In this document: positions 5,540-63,648 of the stretch, piece after piece
Layout: each line of letters opens with the position of its first letter
How positions within the stretch are numbered: position 1 is the stretch's first letter
Sequence record: PQ478073.1
Strand: one strand, 5' to 3'
Source: a phage
DNA: 64,000 nt
Notes under the pieces: generated by a model
Told to the model about the DNA's origin: nothing
Seen by the model: the letters and a program-made list of their open reading frames with translations, nothing else
Databases searched by the model: none
Program-made: the position numbers and the translations under genes

Positions 5540-5925
5540 GATGGCGTAAACGACACGTAAAAAGATTTGATAAAATAATCAAAAAATATTACTCACATAA
5601 GTTAGATCCAATCATACTTCAACTAAGAAGTAGTATGTTTGATAGACGTTTTCCACAGTGTTTAGAATCGTACAGTCGTAAACGTTACAAGAATGAATAC
5701 CTGGTATATCGTTATGATTTATCAGAATTCTTTTTGAATACTCGTGTATCTGTACCCATCAGACTGTACTCAAGGGTAAAACGAAGTAGGGTTCAAGATA
5801 TTACATATGGATATCTTATGATTGAAATCGACGACCTGAATGAAAAAACTGGCAGAAATTACAGTACTTTATGTCTGGAAAACCATGATTCAATAAAAAG
5901 AATCATAGAAGAGTTGGGAAAGTGA
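5536..5925 (+). CDS. hypothetical protein (129 aa), basic
   Basis: ORF track; start overlaps upstream stop (ATGA). Confidence 0.5.
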   Translation: MRWRKRHVKRFDKIIKKYYSHKLDPIILQLRSSMFDRRFPQCLESYSRKRYKNEYLVYRYDLSEFFLNTRVSVPIRLYSRVKRSRVQDITYGYLMIEIDDLNEKTGRNYSTLCLENHDSIKRIIEELGK

Positions 5926-5954
5926 GATTTTTAGTGCTATAATTGGAGATGAGT

Positions 5955-6299
5955 ATGAAATACATCGATAAAGGTACAGTGGAGACACAGTACTGGAATA
6001 TCCATATTGCTGGTGATATTCAAACAGCAAGAGAATACACAAGAAAATTTGCGTTTAAGCATGGCTTTTGTGTACAATTAATTCCCTGTGAATATATCTA
6101 CACTGGTGGTCTTGAAAGTGGGATGTGTGCTCGTATTATTCAGTACCCACGCTTTCCAAAAGAAGAAGTATATCTCAACCGAGATGTATTAAACTATGCA
6201 AAGGGTTTAGCTGAAGAGTTGTGTCAAAAGAGCTTTACTATAGAGCGAAATAATGATACAATTTATTATGAAAGTGATGAACCTTTACACAAGAAATAA
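5955..6299 (+). CDS. hypothetical protein (114 aa)
   Basis: ORF track frame; ATG 5955 six nt after GGAG. Confidence 0.5.
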   Translation: MKYIDKGTVETQYWNIHIAGDIQTAREYTRKFAFKHGFCVQLIPCEYIYTGGLESGMCARIIQYPRFPKEEVYLNRDVLNYAKGLAEELCQKSFTIERNNDTIYYESDEPLHKK

Positions 6300-6310
6300 A
6301 AGGAAAATAT

Positions 6311-6442
6311 ATGAATGGACTAAAGAAATTTGGTAAAGATTTTCTAAAATGCATACGCTACACATATGATGCAAATCCAGAAATGACTGCCATTGTGGGT
6401 GTGTTTATTACACTCGTTGTATTAAGCTTTATTGTGGTGTAA
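6311..6442 (+). CDS. small hydrophobic protein (43 aa)
   Basis: Below ORF-track cutoff; aaggaaa SD, ATG, C-terminal hydrophobic stretch AIVGVFITLVVLSFIVV; fills gap between neighbours. Confidence 0.35.
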   Translation: MNGLKKFGKDFLKCIRYTYDANPEMTAIVGVFITLVVLSFIVV

Positions 6443-6445
6443 AAT

Positions 6446-6649
6446 ATGATTGAAATTAATGCTGATATATATTGTAGTGCATCACCCAATTACTTCATTT
6501 ATGCACTAAGTACATTTGGTGAAACTGAAGGTGAAACTTTTGTTTTAGTAGAGAATACTACATGGTTCAAAACAAGTAATAAAATTCCGAAAGATGTTTT
6601 GGAAACATATGTTCGTATTGAAAATAAAAACATATATGTAATTTTATAG
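6446..6649 (+). CDS. hypothetical protein (67 aa)
   Basis: ORF track. Confidence 0.4.
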   Translation: MIEINADIYCSASPNYFIYALSTFGETEGETFVLVENTTWFKTSNKIPKDVLETYVRIENKNIYVIL

Positions 6650-6656
6650 GTAACAT

Positions 6657-7067
6657 ATGATTGAAATGGAAGGAACTCTGGTGTATGATCCAGATCGTGG
6701 CACTATGAAAAAGAAGAAGGACTTCTGGTTAGTACTACAACTTCCATTACAGTTGGTTCGATACTACCAGTACTTCATCAGAACTGACTTACATATTGAT
6801 ATTAAAGACCCACAATGGGGAGCACATGTCAGTATCGTTCGTGGTGAAGTGCCACCAAATCCAGAGTACTGGAAAAAGTACGATGGAATGAAAGTAAAGA
6901 TAAAGTTCAATCCTTGTATTGAGATAGTAAAAGATAAAAAGAATCCAGGTTCATTCTTTATCATTGAATTTGAAGATGATTTCATCACACATATTAGAAA
7001 TGAACTAGGACTACCAACCAAGTACTTTAAATATCACATCACTGTAGGTAGAACTTACTACGATTAA
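6657..7067 (+). CDS. 2H phosphoesterase superfamily protein (136 aa)
   Basis: Two H-x-[TS]-x motifs with hydrophobic fourth residue (AHVSIV and YHITVG) about 70 residues apart, the hallmark of the LigT/2H fold. Confidence 0.55.
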   Translation: MIEMEGTLVYDPDRGTMKKKKDFWLVLQLPLQLVRYYQYFIRTDLHIDIKDPQWGAHVSIVRGEVPPNPEYWKKYDGMKVKIKFNPCIEIVKDKKNPGSFFIIEFEDDFITHIRNELGLPTKYFKYHITVGRTYYD

Positions 7068-7235
7068 TGTGGTTTTTACAGTAAATATGTCTTGTAATAA
7101 AATAAAAATATGCTATACTACTTAAACATTTGAAAAGAACGTTTTTGTACTGTAGAAAGTCCGATGAGGCTTTTGCAAATGGCCTCTTTGCCATCTTTGT
7201 GATTGCCCATCTTAACAATCAACAAAGGAGGCGTT

Positions 7236-8162
7236 TTGAAACAAGCGAAAAAAGCACTGAAAACTAAGACTACTTATGGTGTTCTAGTTTGCACAGTACT
7301 TGTCGCTGCGATTGGATTTTATGGTTTTTCTCAAAATGATCGTGTATCATCATCGGACGAAAGTCAGGTACACAATTTAAAACCACAAGTTACGCAAATT
7401 CAAAAGCAGGAATTACCAAAGGTAGAAATATCAAAGGATGTTCCACGCGGCGAGAAGCATTATACGGTTCAACCTGGTGATAGTTATTATTCTATTGCTA
7501 AAAAGTTTAAACCTAAAAATGTACAACTTGAAGAGTATGTTATTTTGTTGAAAAATATCAATTTAAATGCTACTCTTCATACTTCTCAGGGTATCTTTAT
7601 CCCAACAAAAGAGGATTTGAAGAACGTATTGTTACCAGATGTGACTGTACTGTTTGATTATAATGATCCAGAAATTGTCAATCACATCAAAGAAGCTGAA
7701 GGTTCAATTGAATTTCAGTCCAAGAACAAACGCCGTTTACTTGGTGGGAAAGTCGGAGTTCCTTTCCACAATTCTAAATTTCATCCCTACAAGGACATGA
7801 AAGGTAATTATACAATAGGTTATGGGCATTATTTGGGTAGAAAAGAATCTGATGCGATTAAGTACAGAAACGGTATTACCAAAGCTCAAGCCAATAAACT
7901 TTTAATGCAAGATATGAAAAGAACATATAATGACTTTTTATTATTGATGCAGAAAAAAGAAGCAGTAAATCTGACCAAAGAACAACAACGTATTCTTTAT
8001 GAAATGTCCTATACAATGGGTGTTGATAAATTAGCAACGTTTAATAAACTTTGGAAAAGTGTGAAAAATGATAACCCTAAGAAATTTAAAAAAGAAATTA
8101 TGAATTCCTTATGGTATCGTCAAGTTACAAACCGAGCAGATTTGTTGTTAAGTTCACTCTAA
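7236..8162 (+). CDS. membrane-anchored LysM + T4-lysozyme-family (GH24-like) protein
   Basis: Perfect SD aaaggagg then TTG 7236 (ORF track starts 7203); N-terminal hydrophobic helix VLVCTVLVAAIGFYGF; LysM-like YTVQPGDSYYSIAKKF; lysozyme motifs YKDMKGNYTIGYGH, GITKAQANKLLMQDM, SLWYRQVTNRADLL parallel T4 lysozyme. Confidence 0.7.
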   Translation: MKQAKKALKTKTTYGVLVCTVLVAAIGFYGFSQNDRVSSSDESQVHNLKPQVTQIQKQELPKVEISKDVPRGEKHYTVQPGDSYYSIAKKFKPKNVQLEEYVILLKNINLNATLHTSQGIFIPTKEDLKNVLLPDVTVLFDYNDPEIVNHIKEAEGSIEFQSKNKRRLLGGKVGVPFHNSKFHPYKDMKGNYTIGYGHYLGRKESDAIKYRNGITKAQANKLLMQDMKRTYNDFLLLMQKKEAVNLTKEQQRILYEMSYTMGVDKLATFNKLWKSVKNDNPKKFKKEIMNSLWYRQVTNRADLLLSSL

Positions 8163-8178
8163 AAAAGGAAGGTGAAGT

Positions 8179-8511
8179 ATGCTAAATCTAAATATTCAAG
8201 GCAACGTTGATATCACTCCAGCAATCCAAGATGCTATTTACAATGAAGCAAAAAGTCTGGATAAGTACCGTACTTCTTCAGTACTAGACATTGGTGTTCA
8301 TGTTAAGAAAGAGCATAAAACTCAATATGCTGTAACTTTAACTGCTGGTAGTAAATCAGTAACTGCTGATGATGCTGATTTGTATAAAGCAATTGTTGAA
8401 TCTTTTGATAAGATGGAAACTGTATTCAGTAAAGACAAAAGCATTAAATTACACCGCAGAAACCATCCAGAACACCCAGTTCTTGATGATTTGACAGAAA
8501 ACGAAGAGTAA
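8179..8511 (+). CDS. hypothetical protein (110 aa)
   Basis: ORF track; aaggaaggtg SD. Confidence 0.5.
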   Translation: MLNLNIQGNVDITPAIQDAIYNEAKSLDKYRTSSVLDIGVHVKKEHKTQYAVTLTAGSKSVTADDADLYKAIVESFDKMETVFSKDKSIKLHRRNHPEHPVLDDLTENEE

Positions 8512-8521
8512 TATATACTAA

Positions 8522-8550
8522 AGGGACAGATTAATTCTGTCCCTTTTCTT
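8522..8550 (+). terminator. rho-independent terminator
   Basis: agggacaga / ttaat / tctgtccct hairpin followed by tttctt. Confidence 0.7.
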
Positions 8551-8564
8551 ATGGAGTTTTAATT

Positions 8565-26277: not shown

Positions 26278-26673
26278 ATGCAATATAATTATCGTGAACT
26301 AGTTGAAGCGTTAGACGAAATTACCGGAAGAGATGAAGACGAAAGTTTTTCAGTTGAAGTTGAATCCGATGTTGTAGCAGTTGATGTTCTTAAGGATATT
26401 ACCAAATGTCTTATTAACATTGTTGATAAGATTAAATCTGGTGAAGACCAAAAAGAAATTGTAGATAAACTACAAAAAGCCTGTGACATTTTGTCTGATA
26501 TTCGATATAATGATGAAAGTACTGAAGTTGCTGATGATGAAGTGTTGGAAGCCATTGCAGGTTGTTTTGGTACTGAAGGTATGGGACCAACAATTGACAA
26601 AGAAGGTGTACAACACTATAATGAACCTGGTGCACCATCTTATGCTGCACGTCAAGGTTTTGTTGGAGACTAA
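26278..26673 (+). CDS. hypothetical protein (131 aa), acidic
   Basis: ORF track; start overlaps upstream stop. Confidence 0.5.
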   Translation: MQYNYRELVEALDEITGRDEDESFSVEVESDVVAVDVLKDITKCLINIVDKIKSGEDQKEIVDKLQKACDILSDIRYNDESTEVADDEVLEAIAGCFGTEGMGPTIDKEGVQHYNEPGAPSYAARQGFVGD

Positions 26674-27080: not shown

Positions 27081-27108
27081 TTGACAAGATAGAATGATGT
27101 GATATAAT
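27081..27108 (+). promoter_or_regulatory. sigma70-like consensus promoter (class B), upstream copy
   Basis: TTGACA 27081-27086, 16-nt spacer, TG-extended TATAAT 27103-27108. Confidence 0.65.
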
Positions 27109-27173: not shown

Positions 27174-27201
27174 TTGACAAGTTGAAACGATGTGATATAA
27201 T
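27174..27201 (+). promoter_or_regulatory. sigma70-like consensus promoter (class B), downstream copy
   Basis: TTGACA 27174-27179, 16-nt spacer, TG-extended TATAAT 27196-27201; core TTGACAAG...GATGTGATATAATG nearly identical to upstream copy. Confidence 0.65.
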
Positions 27202-27370: not shown

Positions 27371-28696
27371 ATGACTACTCAAAACGATATCCTGAACGTT
27401 AAACTGACTCCAAAGAAAGCTAAAGAAGCAATGGCACTAGCTGACATGATTCAAGATAGCCTGATGATTTGGGGTAGCCCAGGTATCGGTAAGTCTGCAA
27501 TCGCTCGTCAATACGCTGATGAAAATTACCCACTGCGTAAAGATAACGTAGCTAAAATCGAGTTCATGAAACAACAAATCGAAGCTGACCCTGAAAATGC
27601 TGATCAGCTACGCCGTGAACTGGTTGCATTTGAAGCAAAACTAATCGACCAAGATACTAACTTTATCGATTTCCGTTTGTCTCAAATCGAACCAAGTGAC
27701 CTTCGCGGTATCCCTGTACCAGAGAAGCTTTTCCGTAAAACTGACGGTTCTCTTCTCAAAGAATCTGAGCTTGCTGAAGCAAAAGATTATGTGGCTGAAA
27801 CTGCTGTAGTATGGGCTGCACCTAAAGTACTGAAATTGTCCGAAGATTGGAAAGGTGTTATTCTGTTTGACGAAATTAACTCTGCAATGCCTATTGTTCA
27901 GGCAGCGTCTTATCAGCTAATCCTCGACCGTTGTGTTGGTGAGATGAAGCTACCTAAGACTGCACTGATTCTTGCAGCAGGTAACCGTGAAACTGATGGC
28001 GGTGTAACGTTCTCTCTTGCTACACCACTGCGTGACCGTATGACTCACATTGAGATGATTCCTTATCATCAAGATTGGATTAACGATTATGCGATTGCAA
28101 AACGTTTGAACCCAGCAACTGTTGCGTTCATCAACAACACTGGTTCTAAGTACTTTAACACACTTAGCCCACAAGATCCTTCTCACAGCGGTGGTACTTC
28201 TCCACGTTCATGGGAAGCAGTAGCACGCTACGAAGATCTCAAGAAAAATAAGACAATTGATAAAGAAGTGTTCCGTGCAATGATTGCTGGTCGTGTTGGT
28301 GAAGGTGTTGCGACTGAATACATTGAGTACGTTGAGAACGTTGCTAAACTACCAGATACTATGTCTATTCTGTCTGGTGAAATCAAAGAAATCGACGCAA
28401 CGCTGGATATTTCTGCGAACTACTTTATCACTCTGAACTTGGTTTATAAAATTATCGACCTGTTCAATGAGAAGCAAGAACAACGTCTACCAGTGGAAGA
28501 ATGGGGTAAACTGTGTAACAACTTCATCACCTTCCTAGACCATAACTTCTCTGCAACTCAAGCAGAACTGGCAGTACTGGCAATTCGTACCATCACGCTT
28601 CATAAGGTTGCGATTTCCATTAAAGATGTACCAGCGTTTAAAGATTTCATCGCTAAGTACTCTGAACTTGTACGTAAAGCACGCTCTCTTGGCTAA
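27371..28696 (+). CDS. MoxR-like AAA+ ATPase (441 aa)
   Basis: Walker A GSPGIGKS, Walker B VILFDEIN, ILAAGNRE sensor-1-like, SPRSWEAV sensor-2-like; aaggaaa SD; G/C-richer codon usage than neighbours. Confidence 0.75.
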   Translation: MTTQNDILNVKLTPKKAKEAMALADMIQDSLMIWGSPGIGKSAIARQYADENYPLRKDNVAKIEFMKQQIEADPENADQLRRELVAFEAKLIDQDTNFIDFRLSQIEPSDLRGIPVPEKLFRKTDGSLLKESELAEAKDYVAETAVVWAAPKVLKLSEDWKGVILFDEINSAMPIVQAASYQLILDRCVGEMKLPKTALILAAGNRETDGGVTFSLATPLRDRMTHIEMIPYHQDWINDYAIAKRLNPATVAFINNTGSKYFNTLSPQDPSHSGGTSPRSWEAVARYEDLKKNKTIDKEVFRAMIAGRVGEGVATEYIEYVENVAKLPDTMSILSGEIKEIDATLDISANYFITLNLVYKIIDLFNEKQEQRLPVEEWGKLCNNFITFLDHNFSATQAELAVLAIRTITLHKVAISIKDVPAFKDFIAKYSELVRKARSLG

Positions 28697-28770: not shown

Positions 28771-30195
28771 ATGTCAGATAACAAATCTACTTCCAGATTT
28801 AATGAAGTATCTCCGGCACTCCAGAAAGAATGTCAAGAACGTCTGGTTCTGGCTCGTACATCTTTGATGTTAACTGCACCATTCTTTGGTGTACTCGCTT
28901 CACGTTTACGTCCAGTTCCTAATAATACATGGTGTCGTACTCTAGCAGTGGATGGTAAACATCTATTCTACAACGTAGAATTTGTAATGGGTATTCAAGA
29001 CCCATCTAAAAAGAAAGAATATGAAGAAGCTATTCGTGAAAAGCACCCTGAAGTTACAGACGAACAATTAAAAGAAATGACTGAAGGTTTGACTGATGAA
29101 AACCTTGTTGCAGTAATTTGTCATGAAATCCTACACTGTGCTTACGATCACTTCCTTCGTCGTGGTATGCGTGATCCACAACGTTATAACCGTGCAGCGG
29201 ATTATGCCATTAACCAAATCATCGTTCGTGAGAAAATTGGAAAAATCCAAAGTTCATGGTTGTATGATAAAAAATATGAAGGTATGACCGCAGAAGAGAT
29301 TTACATTCTTCTTGAAGAAGAAGAAGAAAAGCAAGATGGTGAAGGACAAGGACAACCACAAAGCGGTGGTGGTGAAGGTGAAGGTAAAAATCGTGGAACT
29401 TTTGGTGATATTAAAGATGGTAAGGGTAAACCAAAAGGTACTACAATTGACCAACATGACGTTCCACAAGAAGGTCAAGAAGGTGGTTCTAGTGAACAAC
29501 AAAAACGCGATTATATGGATGATTTCAAAACAGCAATGATGAATGCTGCACGTGCAGGTGGTACACCAGCAGAAATCGCTCGTATGATTAACAACTTCAA
29601 AGAACCAAAGATTGACTGGCGTTCAAAACTTCAACGTACTCTTCGTAGTTGGTTGAAGTCTGATGCAACTTATCAAAATCCAAATCGCCGTTCATGGGGT
29701 GCTGGTTTTGGTTCTAATGGTTCATTCTATGGTAATCCAATTTACCCAGGGATGAAACCAGATGATGATATTGATATTGCGATTGCACTAGATGCTTCTG
29801 GGTCTATTTCTGAAGATATGCTTCGTGATTTCATTAGTGAAGTTCTTGGCATCACTAAACAATTCAAACAGTTTAAGATTCGTATCATGACTTTTGATAC
29901 TGAAGTTTATACTGTAAAGGATTACAAAACTGGCGAAGAACGTAAGATTCTGGAATATCCAGTAAAAGGTGGTGGTGGTACTGACTTTGAAGCAGTATGG
30001 GTTCATATGAAGAACGACAACTACAAGCCTAAACAGCTTGTAATGTTTACTGATGGTGAACCGTGGCAGTCATGGGGTGATCCAAACTACTGTAAAACAC
30101 TGTTCGTGATTCACAGTAACCCAAATAAAGTTGCACCATTTGGTGAGACTGTACACTACGAATATGAAGCTGATAAAAAGCGTCAACGTAGTTAA
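28771..30195 (+). CDS. HExxH putative metallopeptidase domain + von Willebrand factor A (VWA) domain protein
   Basis: VAVICHEILHCAYDH (HExxH); Gly-rich linker; MIDAS-like DIAIALDASGSIS and downstream FTDGEP. Confidence 0.7.
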   Translation: MSDNKSTSRFNEVSPALQKECQERLVLARTSLMLTAPFFGVLASRLRPVPNNTWCRTLAVDGKHLFYNVEFVMGIQDPSKKKEYEEAIREKHPEVTDEQLKEMTEGLTDENLVAVICHEILHCAYDHFLRRGMRDPQRYNRAADYAINQIIVREKIGKIQSSWLYDKKYEGMTAEEIYILLEEEEEKQDGEGQGQPQSGGGEGEGKNRGTFGDIKDGKGKPKGTTIDQHDVPQEGQEGGSSEQQKRDYMDDFKTAMMNAARAGGTPAEIARMINNFKEPKIDWRSKLQRTLRSWLKSDATYQNPNRRSWGAGFGSNGSFYGNPIYPGMKPDDDIDIAIALDASGSISEDMLRDFISEVLGITKQFKQFKIRIMTFDTEVYTVKDYKTGEERKILEYPVKGGGGTDFEAVWVHMKNDNYKPKQLVMFTDGEPWQSWGDPNYCKTLFVIHSNPNKVAPFGETVHYEYEADKKRQRS

Positions 30196-30206
30196 GTACT
30201 AAATAA

Positions 30207-30237
30207 TGAGAACGGAATTTTCCGTTCTCTTCTTTTA
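30207..30237 (+). terminator. rho-independent terminator
   Basis: gagaacgg / aatt / ccgttctc hairpin followed by ttcttttat. Confidence 0.7.
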
Positions 30238-30241
30238 TAAG

Positions 30242-30270
30242 TGGGACAACTTATAAAAATATGATATAAT
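30242..30270 (+). promoter_or_regulatory. promoter-like site, class A
   Basis: TGGGAC 30242-30247, 17-nt spacer, TG-extended TATAAT 30265-30270. Confidence 0.55.
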
Positions 30271-30304
30271 AGTTAATGTACCAATATACATGGAGAGTAT
30301 TAAA

Positions 30305-30550
30305 ATGGAACAAGAAAATAATCAAATTCAACTAACCCTTCTAGACCTAATCAATGCTGCAAAAATCATGGAAGCTGCTGTTGCACGAAACACCTTTAAA
30401 GTTGAAGAACTCGTTGAGGTTGCTCCAGTTGTATCTAAATTTGTTTCTTTTGCAAATGTAGCTCTTGAAGATATTAAAGCACAAGAAGATGCAGCTAAAG
30501 AAGAAGCTGAATCACAAGATAGTGAAACTCAAGAAGATAAAGGAGAATAA
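30305..30550 (+). CDS. hypothetical acidic protein (81 aa)
   Basis: ORF track frame; ATG 30305 six nt after GGAGAG. Confidence 0.5.
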   Translation: MEQENNQIQLTLLDLINAAKIMEAAVARNTFKVEELVEVAPVVSKFVSFANVALEDIKAQEDAAKEEAESQDSETQEDKGE

Positions 30551-30552
30551 TT

Positions 30553-31209
30553 ATGGCAGCTATTCGTCATGTTGGTGTAATGCGTAATACAGGTTCTCGT
30601 GTTTTTGTTGTTTGGCGTTCACTACCAGATGATCCTGAACACTGCCTTATTGTTTATCGTGATTCACTACCAGAAGCATATGTTCACGCAGTAACTGATA
30701 TTGTTATGGGTCATGGTCAATCTAATATTGATTTGTGGGAAGTAATGCATAAAATTGGTTATCTCGATGGACGCAAAATGCTAGATGTTCTACACAATAT
30801 GCAGCATCTACGTCGCGTTCGTACTTGTGACATTGATATGCACACTGGTGGTAATAATAAAATTTCTCTTGATGTTCTAAACAAAGCATTAGATGAAAAT
30901 CAAGCAAAAGTACAAGAAGATGGTAAAGTAAAAGACTTTAACCCATTCAATCCACAAGAAGCGGACACTAAAGTAGAAGAAGCTACTATTGTAGAACAAC
31001 TTCTCACTGATGCACAAAAATATGAAAAACTGGCTAAAGAACATTATGAACGTGCATATAATTTAGAGCCAAGTTTGCGTCCACAAACACAAGTTGTTGA
31101 ACAACCGAAAGATAGTAAAACAATTTATCTAGAAATTCCAGAAGGTATTTCACAGACTAAAGCTATTGAGAAAGTAAAACAACTATTTGCAGAACGTAAA
31201 GCAAAATAA
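30553..31209 (+). CDS. hypothetical protein (218 aa)
   Basis: ORF track; aaggagaa SD. Confidence 0.55.
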   Translation: MAAIRHVGVMRNTGSRVFVVWRSLPDDPEHCLIVYRDSLPEAYVHAVTDIVMGHGQSNIDLWEVMHKIGYLDGRKMLDVLHNMQHLRRVRTCDIDMHTGGNNKISLDVLNKALDENQAKVQEDGKVKDFNPFNPQEADTKVEEATIVEQLLTDAQKYEKLAKEHYERAYNLEPSLRPQTQVVEQPKDSKTIYLEIPEGISQTKAIEKVKQLFAERKAK

Positions 31210-31212
31210 AAT

Positions 31213-31806
31213 ATGAAAAAGAATGAATTAGATGAAGCAATAAAAGGTTTATCTAATGTATGTTTTAGTGGCGGGGCAGCAGGTGCTGACCGCCTTTTTT
31301 CTATCTATGCAAAAAATAATGGATTTGAAGTTATTAATTTTTCATTCAAAGGTCATGAGCATAGTGTAGATGAAAGTACTATATTAGAAATACCATCCAA
31401 TATTCTATCTGATATTTCTATATTAAATCAACTAAACATTGCATGTTACTCGTTACAGCGAAAAGTACCGAAGCCTGGTTCTTATGTTTACAACTTACTT
31501 GCAAGGAATAGTTATCAGATACTTAATACAGAAAGAATATATTGTATTGCAAATATCACATCACCAACTAAGGTAAGTGGTGGTACTGCATGGGCAGTAC
31601 AGATGTATATGGATTCAGTTGAAAATCCTGAAATTTATTGTTATGATATGAATTCACGTTCAGTATTTTATTTCGATACAGTACTGAAAGAGTTCACACA
31701 AACATTCGTCGTTCCAGCACCACATGGTAACTGGACTGGTATTGGTTCACGCAATGCCACCGAAAAACATATGGAACATTTTATTACATTTTTCAAGGAA
31801 GAATAA
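31213..31806 (+). CDS. SLOG/Rossmann-like nucleotide-binding fold protein (197 aa)
   Basis: Gly-rich motifs CFSGGAAGADRLF and TKVSGGTAWAV resemble the two glycine loops of the DprA/LOG/YpsA-type fold; translationally coupled to thyA. Confidence 0.35.
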   Translation: MKKNELDEAIKGLSNVCFSGGAAGADRLFSIYAKNNGFEVINFSFKGHEHSVDESTILEIPSNILSDISILNQLNIACYSLQRKVPKPGSYVYNLLARNSYQILNTERIYCIANITSPTKVSGGTAWAVQMYMDSVENPEIYCYDMNSRSVFYFDTVLKEFTQTFVVPAPHGNWTGIGSRNATEKHMEHFITFFKEE

Positions 31807-32735
31807 TGAAACAACTACAAGAACTATATCAAAAAATTCTAGATGAAGGCGTAGAAAGCGTTGACCGTACTGGTGTTGGGACAATCAAACTTATCGGTCA
31901 ACAAATGCGTTTCGACCTTAACGATGGTTTCCCAGCAGTGACGACAAAACGTCTAGCTTGGAAAGCAATGACTTCAGAATTACTATGGTTTATTGAAGGT
32001 TCCCATGATGAGCGTCGCCTTTGTGAAATTTTGCATGGAACTCGTGATACCGAAAAGAAAACAATTTGGACAGATAATTACCTAAATCAAGGCGTTGCTC
32101 TTGGTTATACTGGTGGTGAATTGGGTCCAGTGTATGGTAAGCAATGGCGTGAATGGGAAGATTATAAATTTAGTTCCAGTACTGAAGAAATTCAAGAATT
32201 AAAAGATAAAGGATACAAAGTTATCGATTATACTGGTTCACATGGTGTTGTTATGAAACGTACAACTGACCAATTACAAGAACTAATCAAAGGTATAAAG
32301 TCCGATCCATATGGTCGTCGCCACATTCTAAGTGCATGGAACGTTGGTGAGCTTGATGATATGACGTTGCCACCTTGTCATAGCTTTGTGCAATTTTGTG
32401 TAGTACAAGGGAAACTAAGCTGCATTCTACATCAACGCTCCGCTGATCTATTTTTAGGAGTTCCATTTAATATCAGTAGTTACTCACTACTAACTCATAT
32501 GATTGCACAAATTACTGGTTTAGATGTTGGTGAATTTATTTGGAATGGTGGTGATTGTCACATTTATAAAAACCACGTTGAACAAGTAAAAGAACAACTA
32601 CAGCGAAAACCTCGTGAATTACCTGAATTGTGGCTTGATCCTACAATTACTAATATTGAAGATTTCACAATGGATTCTTTCAAATTAGTGAATTACAACC
32701 CAATGCCAACAATTAAAGCACCGATGGCTGTATAA
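31806..32735 (+). CDS. thyA: thymidylate synthase
   Basis: DRTGVGT, FPAVTTKR, LGPVYGKQWR, SAWNVGELDDMTLPPCHSFVQF, GKLSCILHQRSADLFLGVPFNISSY, IKAPMAV closely parallel ThyA. Confidence 0.95.
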   Translation: MKQLQELYQKILDEGVESVDRTGVGTIKLIGQQMRFDLNDGFPAVTTKRLAWKAMTSELLWFIEGSHDERRLCEILHGTRDTEKKTIWTDNYLNQGVALGYTGGELGPVYGKQWREWEDYKFSSSTEEIQELKDKGYKVIDYTGSHGVVMKRTTDQLQELIKGIKSDPYGRRHILSAWNVGELDDMTLPPCHSFVQFCVVQGKLSCILHQRSADLFLGVPFNISSYSLLTHMIAQITGLDVGEFIWNGGDCHIYKNHVEQVKEQLQRKPRELPELWLDPTITNIEDFTMDSFKLVNYNPMPTIKAPMAV

Positions 32736-32739
32736 ACGA

Positions 32740-32769
32740 AAAGGGAGAACTAATGTTCTCCCTTTTTTT
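32740..32769. terminator. bidirectional rho-independent terminator at convergent gene ends
   Basis: A-run, gggagaac / taat / gttctccc hairpin, T-run. Confidence 0.75.
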
Positions 32770-53628: not shown

Positions 53629-56600
53629 TTATTTAACTAATAATATATTTTTAATATCATTACCACTAACTTGTAGACTATCAGTGTATACTGAAAGATC
53701 TATAGTGTAACTATTTTGTGTGTAACGTTTTAACATATCATAATTACCTAAATTAATTCCATTGAATGAATATGTAGTATTAAGTTTAAAATCATGTTCT
53801 GCACTATACATTACTCCACGGAGTAAATTATTTGCATTTCTAACTTCAACTTTTTCATATCCAATCGATATAATATCATTTATGTTCGCGGCAGAACCGG
53901 ATAAAACATTATTTCTAATACTATAAGGACTTATTGATTTAGGTTGAGAAACATAGGTTGTATTTTCTTCACTAATGGTTGTGATGTTAGTAACCGTACC
54001 ACCAACAACACCGATGTACATACCGTCAACCATTGGATAACCATAAACCCATATACCTTCATTATTTCTAAACGGTTGAATAACACTTGAATCATATTCA
54101 ATAACGTTGATTTCTAAACTATCAGTCATTTTAGTTCTTGCTAATTCACTAAGAACTCCCGCACCAGTAATTGGTAGGTTATAACCGTTGTCGATAGTAA
54201 TTCCATCAACATCAAATATTTCGTTAGAGATTATCCAAACGTCAACGTCATCTGGTGTTATTCCGTCATTGTACTTACCACCATTTAAAGTAGTATCGTA
54301 GAAAACATCATAATTAATTACATCAATTGTGTAATTTCTATTTTGTTCGTACAATTTGATACCATTCTTCACAAATTCTGGGTCAGCAAATGTTCTAACA
54401 CGAACAATGTTCAATGCAAGAGGCTGTACTGGCTCATTTTGTTGTGCAAGAGTGATATTATCATAACGGAGAACTGCACCAGTACTCTCATCAATCAATT
54501 CAATCGTTTCTTTACCTGTATTTCTTACAGTGAATAGGATCGGAGTTGTATTGTTTTTGATGTTAGATACACGCAAGATTGTTTCCCATGTGTGATTTTG
54601 ATATCTCACAAAATCTTCACCATCAGGAGTGAAAATCATCACCTTATCACCATCAGATAGGTCATTGTCAACTATTTCTGCTTCAGTTAAGCTATTAATA
54701 GATCTCACACGATAGAAATATTTTTCATCAAACTTCGATGTTGTTTTATTAATATCATTTTCAATCTTAGCATATGAAGGAATACTAACAATTGCTTCTG
54801 TATGTTTATATGGATTGATAATTGCCATACCTTCAGTTTGATATCTGCTGTTATCACGTAATTGTACAAGAGATACATTGTCAAACCCATATCCATCAAC
54901 TGTAAATCTAATTTGACCAACATCACGCCCAGAAGGGTTTATGTCAGATATATCCACAATATAAGGATCAACTTCATCATCTTTAACTTCCCATTTTATT
55001 GAAGAAGTTTGAGATTCTAATGCTAGGTTATCAAATGCATTCATATCATTGAAGTACTTAGCTTCAGTAATACTATCAAGTATATATTGATAATCTGAAT
55101 ACATTGGGTTATTTTGATCTAGTGGTAAATCATCTAGATTTATTTCAGCTAGTTCAATCATTTCACCATTTGTGATAAAATAATCTTCCATGAAATCATC
55201 AATACTTTGTTCATCAGGTATACTTTGATATACACCGTTAACATTTAAGTAAACATATTTTCGTGGAATCATTGTAATTGCATAGATATCAATTGGGGTT
55301 TTACTAAGAATCTCTTCAGCTTTTTCGTACTTATCAGTAGCGTCTTTGTCGAATAACCCTCTCATACCTGCTAATACGTGAATAGCATCAGTATAGAAAC
55401 GGGTATCACCACCGACTTCATCATAACGATAAACATATACACCATACTCAACTTCAAGTTTAACTTTTACTTCATAGTCTGATGCGTCAGGATTTTTATC
55501 TTTAATTAATGAAATATATTTTTGATACAGTTCACTGCTTATTTCAAAATATCCATAGTTATAATCATTACTAGAAGAAAAGCCTAATGGAAGTCTAGTA
55601 CTAGGATTGTCATTATAAGTAAGTCCACTAAATCCACAACCAACTTCATCGTGAATTTTCTCATCACTTATATCTTTATAAAGTTTCAAACGGTTTGCCA
55701 ATGTGTTATACTGAACATATTGTCTAAGGTCAGTAAACATATCGTTCTGCGTTGATTCTTTATAAACACGCTCCAATGTAGCAGTAAATTCATCAGTTGC
55801 TTCTAAATCTTCCGCATGGTCTTTATACCACTGGTTAACACCATATGCTGTTCCTAATGTTACATCCAATTCTGGATAGTAGATTTGCATTTGATAAGCA
55901 ATAAGAAGATCGAAAGTTTCTTCACTATATTCTGGGAAAGAATATATATAACGTTGTAATTCATAGTTACTAACAGCATCCTTTTCATTGGATTGATATT
56001 TGTTATTAACACTTACTAATTCATTTATGCTTGCTAAATCTGCATTTGGTTTACATTGAATGTTATCGTAATGCATAATAATATCAATTTCTTGGAATCT
56101 TCTATTTGGTGTAATGAAATCACTTGGTAGTGAACCTACCTGTTCCCATTTTTGGGTAATTTCATTAAATTGAGCGTACTCATAATCCCAAATATCTTTT
56201 TCAGTTTTGACCCAAGAACCGTCAACGAAAATATATCCATTAGGATCTAAATCATTACACAGACCTTTTATTAAATCATCATCAGATGTCTTTTGCTCTA
56301 TTTGTGAACGAATTTTAGTTCTATAAGGTTTAACTTCTTCAAAATATTCAACAATTTGATTAATCAAATTATCGTTTGAATAGTTTTGAACTAATGATTG
56401 TTCCAAACCAACAATATAGATATATGATGTTTTAAATACCCAATCCACAACACTTTGTTCAACATGTACATATTTGACCATATCAAAAACAATTTCGCTT
56501 TGATGTAAATCGAAAGAATTTTTGAGTAAAGCTAGTGCTTTACGAACGTTGATTTCACGATTGCTTAGTGAACCATTATCATTATGAACACTATAATCTG

Positions 56601-59600
56601 CGTAAAGCATATCATTGAGTTCAACTGTACTGTTTTCACGACCAATCGCTTTCCAATAAATTGAATCGCGTGATTGTGATTTAATATACAATGTCCAAAT
56701 GTTTTCACTATCGGTAACTCTGATAATATCTCCAACTTGGTAGTTTTTAGTATTAGCATCTTCTAAGCTTGACTCTTGTGTATAAGTCGTGTTACTATCA
56801 TACCCAACATCATACCAATCAGCATATGACCAGTACTGAGTCATGTCCAATGAAGTTCCTAGTGATTCAACATAATCAGATTGTTTAATCATTTTATGTT
56901 GTCCCTCACCTTTGTTCTCTAACGTTATAGTAACAACACTACCCGCGTTTGCTGGACTATTCATTAACTGAATATATCCATTTTCGTCGAAGTGAATAAA
57001 ATAAACAGCACTAGAAGTTAATGGATTTGGTAGATATCCACTAGTACTTAAAATAACAGCGTCATTTTCTTTAAATTTATCACTTTCAACTGCAATAACT
57101 AATTCATTATTGTAAGACAATACACGGAAAGAAACTTCATTCGGGTTAACTTCAGTGGTTTTAACATTAAACACATCTTCCATAACAACACTATTAGTGG
57201 TTATGTTTTGTGACCTATAATAATTATTAGCACTTTCTACAAAGTTTCTACGAGCTTCTATAACATTTTGGAACCAAGTTTTGTTTGAACCTAAACCGTT
57301 ATCAACATCTGGATATAATAAATTAATCACAGAACCTGATTCAGTTGTTTCTTGACCAATTAGTGAGTTCCACATTGAATCCCAAATTAGTGGGTTAAAG
57401 TTATAGCTGTCACCTTCTTTACATAGTTGATACTGGTCATGTTTAACAACTTCAGTACTATCCATGTAATAAGAAACAGTTAAAATACTGGTATCATCAT
57501 TCACTTTAAATTGCATATTACTAAGAATAAACGAGTTTTCATTGATTGGAGCGAACCAAGGAATGTTTAGCTGTGTTGGATCTTTAATAATACGAGCAAT
57601 GTCAGTACATGATTTTGTTCTGGTATGTAGTGGTGGTACATAAATTGTATCACGTACCCAGAAATAGTATTTTGTCACATAACTATCAGTTGAACTATCA
57701 TATTCCAAAAATGTACTATAATTATCTTCAAGTGCAGTTCCACTTGGTAGATACATAGTATTATTTTTGTTTTTCTTAGCAACATCTTTACAGTATTTGT
57801 CCCAGTTATATGGCTCAACTGGTGAACAAACCCACTCTAACACATCAATTGTACTATGTGGTAATAAACGACCCCAGTTGTAACGTTTGTATTCATTGGT
57901 TGCATCAATGTCAACATTACCGTCTGCGTCATAAATTGCACGAGTATAATCCAAATAAAATGCAGTGCTAGTGTTCCACCATACTTGACCAACTTTATCA
58001 GCACCCCAAGCCTGGATTAACTCTCCATTACTATTATACTGTGCAGGATCAACTGGTGAAGTATATGTTACGTTTTGCATAGCCGCACCTGGAATAACAC
58101 CATTAATTGGGTCATAAACGTTTAGATATAGCTCAGTAATGTTAGTACGTTCATCATATGTCGTTGGACGATCAAATAAAGTACTTTGTGGTGCTTTAAA
58201 ACTATATTTCTTGTCAATGTAAGCTTGACGTTCATCAGTACTGGCAAAACGTGATACATAACGATACAAACGTGGACGTGTATCTGGATCAGTAAATTCA
58301 ATATCAATAGAAGTGTCAAATGGAACTACCATAACTTTAGGATCAGAACCAGCAGTATAATATTGACTTTCTACTGTTAAAGTATCTGGCATAAAGTTAG
58401 TTTCATCAACAAAATAATAATAATCACCATCTTCAAGTGGTACATTATCAGTTAAAGTTACTTTACAAAATTGTTCAGCATACACATCGGTATTTTCAAT
58501 AGGTGTTATAGAAACCATTTGAACATTAGTATCAACCAATTCAAAAATGTTCCACAAACCATTACCGTCTTTAAACATCCACACAGATTCAGGATTTTCA
58601 CCTTTACCATTAGTATAAGTTATGCGGTCATTATATGCAGTACTGAAATCTTTTGTTGTGTACGATACTTCATCCAATGTTACTGGACCAATATCTGGAA
58701 GTTGGATATTTTCACTTCTTCCACTACGCATTGGGAATGAGAACTTACCATTTGGACGTGTAATCCAACGAGGATCTTTACCCTGCTCACCGAAGTATAC
58801 AATATGATTACCATTACCATTTGAAGTTGCATTTACATCAAAAGAAACCATTTGAGGTTGTTGTTTAAATTGGTCATTGATTAGTTTAAATTGAAGGTTT
58901 TTCTTACCATCAATATTACCATATGTACCAATTTTAAATGCCCATTCTTGTAATGCTTTATATTCATCAGTGTCATATGATTTAGAAACACGAAGGACAC
59001 GTTCTAAAACTTGGTTAGTACCTTTATCGTGAATGAATCCTTTATAGAAATCAACACGACTAACATCACTACTAATCATACGCTGTAGATAATCACGAGA
59101 TTGATAACCAATCAAATGGTTTGACAACTCTTGTAATTGTACATCACTTACTGGAGTTTCACTATCATAATAATGTTGGAAATCCGACACTAATTTTTCA
59201 AATGATGGTAGTGTTCCAGCTTCCAAGATAATAAATCCAGGAGCTTGTAGGCGACCAGTCCATGAACCAGTAATATATCCATACATTTTAATTAGTTCTT
59301 GAATAGAACCATATGTTGGCTGATAAATGTAATCACCAAAAATAGTTTTATCATCAAAAATAACAGCATGTTCATATGAACACAAACTTAAACGAATCAA
59401 TGCAATGCGTTTATTAGATTCTAAAGTTCTAACAGTGAAGATATTTCCAATACGAGAAGTTTCAATTTCATATTGGCGAATACCTTGGTTATTATCATCA
59501 AGTAATGACCATACACCACCATTATTTTGCGTAATAGATTGTACTGAACCAAAGTCTGCCCCAAATTTAGCGTTTGCAGCACTTGGGGTACAAGAAATAA

Positions 59601-63600: not shown

Positions 63601-63648
63601 TTTTGGACTCCATATAATTCGTTCATTCATTTGATTTATTTATGATAT

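What the first reader, a model, noticed from the sequence alone, without database searches (positions are those of the whole stretch)
31213..32735. SLOG-like nucleotide-binding protein translationally coupled to thymidylate synthase
The gene directly upstream of thyA (stop/start overlap at 31804-31808) encodes a protein with two glycine-rich loops (SGGAAGAD and SGGTAWA) reminiscent of the DprA/LOG/YpsA Rossmann-like fold. The coupling suggests a shared pyrimidine or modified-nucleotide pathway, potentially a DNA base-modification or nucleotide salvage step.
Basis: inference. Interest (0 to 1): 0.45.

Follow-up and report, generated by a model that had tools for sequence, protein, structure and literature searches.

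The report
Permuted SLOG nucleotide-binding protein beside thyA
The gene in front of thymidylate synthase in this 121Q-like jumbo phage does encode a nucleotide-binding protein of the SLOG (DprA/LOG/YpsA) type, from a large and already catalogued phage family, but its pairing with thyA is limited to one phage lineage and nothing points to DNA base modification.

Summary
ORF 31213-31806 (197 aa, 100% identical to coliphage 121Q gp567) ends in TAATG, which starts a canonical thyA (31806-32735). Both glycine-rich loops are present and are the most conserved positions of the family.

The family is large, with 2,830 cluster representatives. No Pfam model covers it. PHROG 768 and RefSeq already label it "DprA-like".

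The inferred link to thyA is weak.
- thyA adjacency occurs only in the Rak2-like clade, as one syntenic block, and usually with an extra ORF in between.
- 20 of 57 same-strand gene pairs in the window are equally tight.
- In other phages the recurrent neighbour is a dNMP kinase.
- The domain also occurs inside giant virion proteins, fused to NADAR, and beside Acb1 or the gp46/47 nuclease genes.

ThyA is canonical, and nothing indicates base modification. The most likely role is binding or processing of a nucleoside-5'-phosphate ligand. The substrate is unresolved. This is a new member of a known kind, of modest interest.

The parts
30208..30229 (.). Terminator-like hairpin that closes the upstream ATPase/VWA unit and marks the 5' boundary of the four-gene unit
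   Evidence: 9-bp stem, found on both strands
30243..30270 (+). Sigma-70-like promoter (GGGACA-16-TATAAT with an extended -10 TG) in front of the four-gene unit
   Evidence: sequence. This is a consensus match only.
30290..30550 (+). 86-aa ORF (121Q gp565 homologue, PHROG 13789), function unknown
30553..31209 (+). 218-aa ORF (121Q gp566 homologue, PHROG 15894). It is restricted to Rak2-like phages. The N-terminus is an SH3/KOW-like beta-barrel, followed by long helices. Function unknown.
31213..31806 (+). 197-aa circularly permuted SLOG-domain protein (121Q gp567; PHROG 768 'DprA-like')
31267..31290 (+). Loop 1, S19-GGAAGA-D26, the Gly-rich loop with the GxD signature (equivalent to DprA SGLARGID)
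   Evidence: The GxD/E signature of the YpsA clade is described in PMC6459960.
31495..31518 (+). L95-LARNSY-Q102, the 'RN' helix motif. R98 is 100% conserved (equivalent to DprA FPRRNRII).
31576..31596 (+). Loop 2, S122-GGTAW-A128. GGT is 100% conserved and W127 97% (equivalent to DprA SGSLVTA and LOG GGxGT).
31738..31752 (+). C-terminal strand and loop G176-IGS-R180, the DprA-type 'GSR' motif displaced from the N-terminus to the C-terminus (circular permutation)
31795..31801 (+). Shine-Dalgarno-like AAGGAAG for thyA, inside the 3' end of the SLOG gene
31804..31808 (+). TAATG stop/start overlap
31806..32735 (+). Canonical thymidylate synthase ThyA (309 aa), with insertions of about 8, 5, 2 and 29 aa relative to E. 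coli ThyA
32738..32767 (+). Strong intrinsic terminator (13-bp stem plus T-run) between the convergent thyA and a tail/structural gene

Best explanation
ORF 31213-31806 encodes a stand-alone, circularly permuted SLOG domain of the YpsA/DprA-like branch. Its nearest solved structure is 3IMK.

Four near-invariant elements match the loops that line the nucleotide-phosphate pocket in DprA and LOG (inferred from motif correspondence; the model's coordinates could not be inspected): S19-GGAxGA-D26, R98-N-xx-Q102, G123-G-T125-A-W127 and the C-terminal G176-IGS-R180. R180 and R98 correspond to the two arginines needed for phosphate contacts in DprA and ShosA. W127 is placed where it could stack on a base.

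The gene belongs to a tightly packed four-gene unit running from a sigma-70-like promoter to a terminator. The unit ends with a normal thyA.

Inferred mechanism: the protein binds a free nucleoside-5'-phosphate-type ligand, and probably hydrolyses or sequesters it, as an accessory to phage nucleotide-pool management. The dNMP level is most likely, because that is the substrate class of its two recurrent neighbours, ThyA here and dNMP kinase in other phages. It is neither an obligate partner of ThyA nor a DNA-hypermodification enzyme.

Shown here: the fold, the conserved motifs, the family and the genomic contexts. Inferred: the ligand class and any catalysis.
For: Fold:
- The AF2 model has pLDDT 97.4 and pTM 0.92.
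- 3imk is also the top Foldseek hit, with probability 1.00.
- Sequence support is weak but consistent: YAcAr hits in 16 of 53 members and DprA hits in 6 of 53, and PHROG 768 at E 1e-26.

Permutation:
- The motif order differs from E. coli Smf in the way a circular permutation predicts.
- After the C-terminal GIGSR element was moved to the N-terminus, 4 of 10 members aligned to Pfam DprA across the artificial junction, best E 3e-5.

Conserved ligand site: G20, G24, D26, R98, T125 and G178 are 100% conserved in 250 members, and S19, Q102, W127 and R180 at least 97%.

Nucleotide-metabolism context:
- A dNMP kinase (Pfam DNMK) lies directly upstream on the same strand in 29 of 60 non-Rak2 loci, mostly with overlapping or very short spacers. 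It lies within two genes in 33 loci.
- This pairing persists although the flanking genes are rearranged and the SLOG proteins diverge to 34% identity.
- The same pair occurs in a 549-kb phage contig, in phage Phosso and in Atu_ph07.
- thyA is adjacent in all 15 Rak2-like loci and lies 1.4 kb downstream in Vibrio phage 2.275.O.
- dUTPase, dCMP deaminase and a PRTase occur nearby in single loci.
- Guanylate-kinase fusions of viral SLOG domains are reported in PMC9503650.

Superfamily chemistry: characterised LOG-type members act on nucleoside 5'-monophosphates (PMC9503650).
Against: - No ligand or activity was tested.
- The LOG catalytic Glu (PGGxGTxxE) is absent; the equivalent position is A128, 98% Ala. 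A LOG-type hydrolytic mechanism therefore cannot simply be transferred.
- The dNMP-kinase and thyA associations amount to only a few evolutionary events. Each sits inside a conserved block among structural genes.
- In T4 (my own knowledge) the region next to gene 1 also carries the anti-CBASS gene 57B/acb1. Adjacency to dNMP kinase is therefore also compatible with an anti-defence islet.
- Other contexts point elsewhere: a NADAR fusion, an ART-containing polyvalent protein, an Acb1 neighbour, the gp46/47 nuclease genes and giant virion proteins.
Confidence: 0.35

Rival explanations
1. Counter-defence enzyme or sponge. The SLOG domain binds or cleaves ADP-ribose-derived or other nucleotide immune signals (cADPR isomers and similar) early in infection, as Iyer et al. 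predicted for viral YpsA-like SLOG domains.
For: - The prediction and its rationale are in PMC9503650 and PMC7824862. Viral SLOG domains are mainly of the YpsA-like clade, occur in 31% of jumbo phages, and are fused to Macro or NADAR.
- In this family, P0198 carries SLOG followed by NADAR.
- P0244 is a 4,050-aa polyvalent protein with SprT-like, ART-PolyVal, SF1 helicase and SLOG domains.
- NADAR lies two genes away in L060, and Acb1 (E 4.6e-33) lies directly downstream in L073.
- NMNAT-Nudix and NAMPT lie nearby in L101.
- The domain is embedded in giant proteins that are probably ejected: the Pylas virion RNA polymerase at residues 984-1156, and the 4,328-aa gp38 of crAss-like cr113_1.
- A sigma-70-type promoter is consistent with early expression.
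Against: - Each of these associations is sporadic, seen in one locus or one protein. The commonest neighbours of the stand-alone form are dNMP kinase and ThyA.
- No PADLOC or anti-defence model matches the window protein.
- No experimentally characterised phage SLOG anti-defence protein turned up in the literature searches.
Confidence: 0.3
2. DprA-like ssDNA-binding protein. The permuted Rossmann-like domain binds single-stranded DNA through the GSR and RN arginines. It would act as a recombination mediator or ssDNA protector for the phage RecA/UvsX-like recombinase.
For: - The motifs correspond one-to-one with E. coli Smf/DprA.
- R180 and R98 correspond to H. pylori DprA R52 and R143, and to ShosA R139 and R234, which are needed for ssDNA binding (PMC12961424). 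The mapping is by motif position and is inferred.
- Weak Pfam DprA and PADLOC ShosA hits occur in several members.
- RaK2 encodes a RecA-like protein but no UvsY (PMC3622015). Iyer et al. suggested that phage DprA/SLOG proteins act as extra ssDNA binders.
- In Caulobacter phage Cr30 the gene directly follows the gp47/gp46 recombination nuclease genes.
- The Flavobacteriaceae chromosomal homologue sits beside a WYL/WCX regulator and topA. This resembles the smf-smg-yrdD (topoisomerase-like) arrangement in E. coli.
Against: - All DprA model hits fall below the gathering threshold. The hhalign comparison with Smf is not significant (probability 0.1%).
- There is no SAM or winged-helix domain.
- The third DNA-binding Arg is replaced by Trp (W127).
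- The window protein is acidic, with pI 5.7 and net charge -4, against pI 9.2 for the Smf Rossmann domain.
Confidence: 0.2
3. One reading: a dedicated partner of ThyA in a pyrimidine or modified-nucleotide pathway, leading to DNA base modification or nucleoside salvage.
For: - The stop/start overlap with thyA and a shared promoter-to-terminator unit.
- Adjacency is conserved across the Rak2-like genera.
Against: - Adjacency is absent outside that clade: 65 of 80 loci have no thyA within 6 kb.
- In 12 of the 15 Rak2-like loci another ORF lies between the two genes.
- The overlap is commonplace in this window.
- ThyA is canonical.
- No hydroxymethylase or glycosyltransferase context was found. 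RaK2 DNA shows only methylation-type protection.
Confidence: 0.07

Closest known systems
cpYpsA (Pfam PF12694, 'circularly permutated YpsA SLOG family'; structure 3IMK, deposited as a putative molybdenum carrier protein)
   Same: - Both are single-domain proteins of similar size.
- The sequential alignment implies the same permuted strand order.
   Different: - The window protein gives no hit to PF12694 at E of 1 or less. The best hit in the family is P0218 at 19.5 bits, against a cut-off of 26.2.
- The phage family carries an extra beta-hairpin (residues about 141-164) and is about 40 aa longer.
- That 3IMK belongs to PF12694 is recalled from memory and was not tested here.
- The function of cpYpsA is itself unknown.
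DprA/Smf (PF02481) and ShosA
   Same: - All four motifs are shared: GSR, SGxAxGxD, RN and SG(S/G)xxTA.
- PHROG and RefSeq label the protein 'DprA-like'.
   Different: - The first strand is moved to the C-terminus.
- There are no SAM or winged-helix domains.
- Pfam scores fall below threshold.
- The third ssDNA-binding Arg is replaced by Trp.
- The protein is acidic.
- ssDNA and RecA binding were not tested.
YAcAr / DUF2493 (PF10686)
   Same: It is the only Pfam model that touches the window protein, covering residues 6-44, the first Gly-rich loop. 16 of 53 members give weak hits. One GenBank record annotates its homologue of this protein as a DUF2493 protein.
   Different: The score is 20.2 bits against a cut-off of 28.2, and the match covers one strand-loop-helix only.
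LOG / PpnN phosphoribohydrolases
   Different: The catalytic Glu of PGGxGTxxE is Ala128 here. There is no Pfam hit.
Viral YpsA-like SLOG domains catalogued by Iyer, Burroughs, Aravind et al. (Viruses 2021 and 2022)
   Same: Both are stand-alone or fused SLOG domains enriched in jumbo phages, with NADAR and polyvalent-protein fusions and sporadic kinase fusions.
   Different: Those papers emphasise NAD/ADPr signalling. The recurrent dNMP-kinase-then-SLOG gene pair, the thyA-linked Rak2 clade and the permutation of this particular family are not described in the text that could be read here. The supplements were not available.

Membership tests
SLOG superfamily | Three-layer Rossmannoid alpha/beta fold structurally similar to LOG, DprA and YpsA proteins | tested here: met
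   [not shown]
SLOG superfamily | Two conserved Gly-rich nucleotide-binding loops (GGxxGxD/E-type and GGT/GxGT-type) | tested here: met
   S19-GGAAGA-D26 and S122-GGTAW-A128 are present. G20, G24, D26 and T125 are invariant in 250 members.
cpYpsA (PF12694) | Match to the family HMM above the gathering score | tested here: not met
   The window protein gives no hit at E of 1 or less. P0218 scores 19.5 bits against 26.2.
cpYpsA (PF12694) | Circularly permuted SLOG topology, with the canonical first strand at the C-terminus | tested here: met
   [not shown]
YAcAr (PF10686) | Match to the family HMM above the gathering score | tested here: not met
   20.2 bits against 28.2, E 5e-4, residues 6-44 only.
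DprA/Smf (PF02481) | Match to the family HMM above the gathering score | tested here: not met
   The window protein gives no hit. Six of 53 members hit with best E 0.006, and P0218 scores 26 bits against 29.6.
DprA/Smf (PF02481) | Conserved ssDNA-contacting arginines (H. pylori DprA R52, R143, R170) | tested here: inconclusive
   R180 (GSR) and R98 (RN) are conserved. The third position is W127. The mapping is by motif position, not by superposition.
DprA/Smf (PF02481) | ssDNA binding, dimerisation and RecA loading | not testable with these tools
   These need EMSA and pull-down experiments. The only indirect observation is the acidic pI of 5.7.
LOG phosphoribohydrolase | PGGxGTxxE motif with the catalytic Glu | tested here: not met
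   The position three residues after T125 is A128, which is Ala in 98% of members.
Thymidylate synthase ThyA (the neighbouring gene) | Family HMM above cut-off and conserved catalytic residues (Cys146, Arg21, Glu58, Tyr94, Arg126/127, Asn177, His207, C-terminus; E. coli numbering) | tested here: met
   PF00303 E 1e-101 and NF002497 342.7 bits against 327. All listed residues are identical in the alignment with E. coli ThyA.
Translationally coupled SLOG-thyA gene pair | Stop/start overlap with an internal ribosome-binding site | tested here: met
   TAATG at 31804-31808 and AAGGAAG at 31795-31801.
Translationally coupled SLOG-thyA gene pair | The pairing is conserved across relatives of the SLOG gene | tested here: not met
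   Direct juxtaposition occurs only in the 121Q and RaK2 types (L001-L003). In 12 other Rak2-like loci an ORF of about 87-125 aa intervenes. In 65 other loci there is no thyA within 6 kb.

The most novel reading that the evidence does not exclude
The permuted SLOG protein that follows dNMP kinase in many large phages, and precedes thyA in Rak2-like phages, could be an undescribed enzyme of the phage dNMP pool. One possibility is a dNMP N-glycosidase or base-exchange enzyme. Such an enzyme could sanitise non-canonical dNMPs. It could also rebalance purine dNMPs released from host DNA (about 51% GC, from my own knowledge) for a 35% GC phage, as a purine counterpart of the dCMP-deaminase/ThyA route. 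The same module, built into giant ejected virion proteins of N4-like and crAss-like phages, would then act on host nucleotides from the first moments of infection.
Probability: 0.12. Interest if true: 0.65.

Novelty: new member of a known kind. Interest (0 to 1): 0.3.

Why it matters
- It gives a firm structural assignment to a gene that most GenBank records call 'hypothetical' and some call a 'DprA-like recombination mediator'.
- The family is large: about 2,800 clusters at 50% identity. It is spread through jumbo phages, T4-like environmental phages, and N4-like and crAss-like virion proteins. No Pfam model covers it and no member has been tested.
- The near-invariant set of polar residues makes it a tractable biochemical target.
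- The three competing ligand classes (dNMP/NMP, ADPr-type immune signals, ssDNA) can be told apart with simple binding assays.
- For this particular finding, the result mainly corrects an over-reading: the thyA overlap does not indicate a DNA-modification pathway.

Tried and rejected
- Sequence searches against the PDB found nothing significant, whether with the single protein, the family profile or P0218.
- NCBIfam gave no hit for the SLOG protein. PADLOC gave none for the window protein.
- hhalign of the family profile against E. coli Smf aligned the RN motif only, at probability 0.1%.
- Foldseek against AFDB50 could not be run because the library was unavailable.
- Direct dNMP kinase-SLOG fusions were sought among 250 family members with an HMM built from the neighbouring kinases. 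None was found.
- Pfam found nothing in the extension of about 100 aa C-terminal to the domain in the 255-312-aa forms, nor in several proteins with N-terminal extensions.
- The giant SLOG-containing ORFs were compared with the Pylas virion RNA polymerase. Only the SLOG segment is shared, so they cannot all be called vRNAPs.
- The genome-contig scan used a single strict peptide pattern and returned only 15 loci, so it says little about how common cellular homologues are.
- Burroughs et al. 2015 (NAR) and the supplements of the two Viruses papers could not be read.
- The DNA hypermodification idea was rejected. ThyA is canonical, no modification genes lie nearby, and the RaK2 literature gives no support.
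Full report
WHAT THE WINDOW IS. The 2.5 kb around the finding is 98-99% identical to Asteriusvirus jumbo coliphages such as 121Q, E9.1, G17 and phAPEC6. The ORF in question is 100% identical in protein sequence to 121Q gp567. RefSeq names that protein 'DprA-like DNA recombination-mediator protein', and most GenBank records call it hypothetical.

CHECKING THE OBSERVATION. ORF 31213-31806 (197 aa) and ORF 31806-32735 (309 aa) are present, and a TAATG overlap joins them. An AAGGAAG ribosome-binding site lies at 31795-31801. The motifs SGGAAGAD (residues 19-26) and SGGTAWA (residues 122-128) are present.

The downstream protein is an ordinary ThyA. It scores PF00303 E 1e-101 and passes the NCBIfam equivalog cut-off. 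It is 53% identical to E. coli ThyA. Arg21, Glu58, Tyr94, Arg126/127, Cys146, His147, Asn177, His207 and the C-terminus are all conserved, and the differences are surface insertions.

The overlap is real but not distinctive. Of 57 same-strand neighbouring ORF pairs in this window, 20 overlap or are 10 nt or less apart.

The two genes close a four-gene unit (30290-32735). A terminator-like hairpin (30208-30229) and a sigma-70-like promoter with an extended -10 (30243-30270) precede the unit. A strong terminator follows it at 32738-32767.

FOLD AND FAMILY. Pfam gives only a sub-threshold hit to YAcAr, a SLOG family (E 5e-4). PHROG 768 'DprA-like' matches at E 1e-26.

A search of 5.8 billion proteins found 106 homologues, none with a Pfam domain on record. 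A profile search of 1.84 billion cluster representatives found 2,830 hits at E of 1e-3 or less, and 780 at E of 1e-30 or less.

CIRCULAR PERMUTATION. The family has four near-invariant elements:
- S19-GGAxGA-D26.
- R98-N-xx-Q102.
- G123-G-T125-A-W127-A.
- At the very C-terminus, G176-IGS-R180.

Each has a counterpart in E. coli Smf/DprA: SGLARGID, FPRRNRII, SGSLVTA and VVGSR. In DprA, however, the GSR strand comes first. I moved the C-terminal strand and helix to the N-terminus in ten family members and rescanned them against Pfam. Four then aligned to the DprA model from the GSR strand straight across the artificial junction, with best E 3e-5, still below threshold. Together with the best, sequential, structural match to 3IMK, this supports a permuted YpsA/DprA-like SLOG domain. 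The GxD signature matches the GxD/E motif described for the YpsA clade (PMC6459960). The LOG catalytic Glu is missing, because the equivalent position is Ala128.

GENOMIC CONTEXT. I collected 79 viral loci, called ORFs and clustered the neighbours.

Rak2-like clade:
- thyA is adjacent only in this clade, in 15 of the 80 loci held, where SLOG identity is 49% or more.
- All 15 loci share the same syntenic block, so this counts as about one evolutionary event.
- In 12 of them an acidic ORF of about 87-125 aa lies between the SLOG gene and thyA.
- Vibrio phage 2.275.O, a distant relative, has four small ORFs in between.

Other loci:
- In the other 60 loci analysed the recurrent neighbour is a dNMP kinase (Pfam DNMK).
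- It lies directly upstream on the same strand in 29 loci, usually with overlapping or very short spacers. It lies within two genes in 33 loci.
- This holds although the surrounding genes (tail sheath, PTH2, neck proteins) are rearranged and the SLOG proteins diverge to 34% identity.
- The same pair occurs in a 549-kb contig, in Sinorhizobium phage Phosso and in Agrobacterium phage Atu_ph07.

Sporadic contexts:
- NADAR is fused in P0198 and lies two genes away in L060, together with dUTPase.
- The anti-CBASS gene Acb1 lies directly downstream in L073.
- NMNAT-Nudix and NAMPT lie nearby in L101.
- PRTase_3 and a HAD hydrolase lie upstream in L102.
- A histidine phosphatase is fused in P0153.
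- The gp47/gp46 recombination nuclease genes lie directly upstream in Caulobacter phage Cr30.

Giant proteins:
- The domain is embedded in proteins of 2.6-4.3 thousand residues.
- One is a polyvalent protein with SprT-like, ART-PolyVal and SF1 helicase domains.
- Another is the annotated virion RNA polymerase of N4-like phage Pylas, at residues 984-1156.
- A third is the 4,328-aa gp38 of a crAss-like phage.
- These giant proteins share only the SLOG segment with one another.

Cellular homologues: a strict-pattern scan of cellular genomes returned 15 loci. Thirteen are from Flavobacterium, Paenimyroides and Myroides, and in the eleven that could be read the gene sits beside a WYL/WCX regulator and topA.

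MECHANISM. The shown facts are the fold, the near-invariant polar residues (S19, D26, R98, N99, Q102, T125, W127, R180) and the contexts. Everything about the ligand is inferred.

Three readings compete.
(a) A mononucleotide ligand at the dNMP level. The main support is the deep dNMP kinase-SLOG pairing, the thyA-linked clade and the monophosphate chemistry of LOG-type members.
(b) ADPr-type or other nucleotide immune signals, as Iyer et al. predicted for viral YpsA-like SLOG domains (PMC9503650, PMC7824862). The NADAR, ART and Acb1 contexts and the presence in probably ejected giant proteins support this.
(c) DprA-like ssDNA binding. The support is the motif identity, including the two arginines needed in DprA and ShosA (PMC12961424), the absence of UvsY in RaK2 (PMC3622015), and the Cr30 and Flavobacteriaceae contexts.

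Several points count against (c): the acidic pI of 5.7, the missing accessory domains and the weaker structural match to DprA. Against (a) and (b), each association rests on few independent events. I rank (a) 0.35, (b) 0.30 and (c) 0.20.

THE OPERON PARTNER. The 218-aa protein encoded just upstream is restricted to Rak2-like phages. Its model shows only an SH3/KOW-like barrel plus helices. It adds no functional information.

NOVELTY AND SCORE. SLOG domains in jumbo phages are already described computationally, and this gene already carries a 'DprA-like' label in RefSeq. What this analysis adds:
- The structural confirmation.
- The permutation.
- The size of the family and the absence of a Pfam model for it.
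- The lineage-restricted nature of the thyA link.
- The recurrent dNMP kinase pairing.

It is a new member of a known kind, with interest about 0.3. The most novel reading not excluded is an undescribed dNMP-pool enzyme that is also built into ejected virion proteins. That reading has a probability of about 0.12.

Noticed in passing
window 26594-26622, 27081-27108, 27174-27201 (+): Three perfect 12/12 matches to the sigma-70 consensus (TTGACA, 16-17 nt, TATAAT) cluster within about 600 nt upstream of the AAA ATPase gene (27371-28696). The density is unusually high and suggests a strong early promoter array.
   Followed up: no
window 28771-30195 (+): The 474-aa ORF is named 'HNH endonuclease' in RefSeq and PHROG 1314. 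Pfam instead finds a DUF2201_N putative metallopeptidase plus a DUF2201 VWA-like domain (E 3.5e-35 and 6.9e-21). It follows an AAA+ ATPase, an arrangement that resembles (from memory) a MoxR-type ATPase paired with a VWA protein. The HNH name looks wrong.
   Followed up: partly
window 31806-32735 (+): ThyA carries insertions of about 8, 5, 2 and 29 aa relative to E. coli ThyA. In the near-identical phage phAPEC6, thymidylate synthase (gp259c) was detected in purified virions by mass spectrometry, with 3 peptides (PMC7247149). The gene sits among tail genes.
   Followed up: partly
L081, L084-L088 and L090-L093, about 5700-7500 (SLOG gene plus the 309-aa gene); topA about 7500-10100; L084 examined in detail: A 186-aa chromosomal homologue of the SLOG protein is conserved in Flavobacterium, Paenimyroides and Myroides. 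It lies between a divergent MiaB-like radical-SAM gene (identified by eye) and a WYL/WCX regulator, followed by topA. This echoes the smf-smg-yrdD arrangement in E. coli.
   Followed up: partly
L103 6046-17505 (Klebsiella phage Pylas) and L105 1-4777 (crAss-like cr113_1): The same SLOG domain is embedded in the N4-like virion RNA polymerase gene (residues 984-1156 of 3,819; E 1.4e-54) and in a 4,328-aa crAss-like protein. These proteins are probably ejected into the host.
   Followed up: partly
L016-L069 (many), e.g. L025 5342-6540, L099 4387-5579, L106 3312-4864: A dNMP kinase gene directly followed by the SLOG gene, often with overlapping stop and start, recurs in T4-like environmental phages and in phages of 470-550 kb. 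The surrounding genes are rearranged.
   Followed up: yes
L073 6769-7230; L060 5207-5647 and 6957-7433; L101 6413-9703; L104 2329-5528: Single-locus neighbours of SLOG homologues include anti-CBASS Acb1 (E 4.6e-33), dUTPase and NADAR, NMNAT-Nudix plus NAMPT, and the gp47/gp46 recombination nuclease genes in Caulobacter phage Cr30.
   Followed up: partly
L004-L014 and L021, about 6590-6930 (e.g. L009 6590-6934): In most Rak2-like genera an acidic ORF of about 87-125 aa, probably coiled-coil, lies between the SLOG gene and thyA. It has a weak Yae1_N hit (E 2.4e-4). It is absent from the window and from RaK2.
   Followed up: partly
window 53629-63630 (-): A single 3,333-aa ORF. It was not examined.
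   Followed up: no
[not shown]
   Followed up: partly
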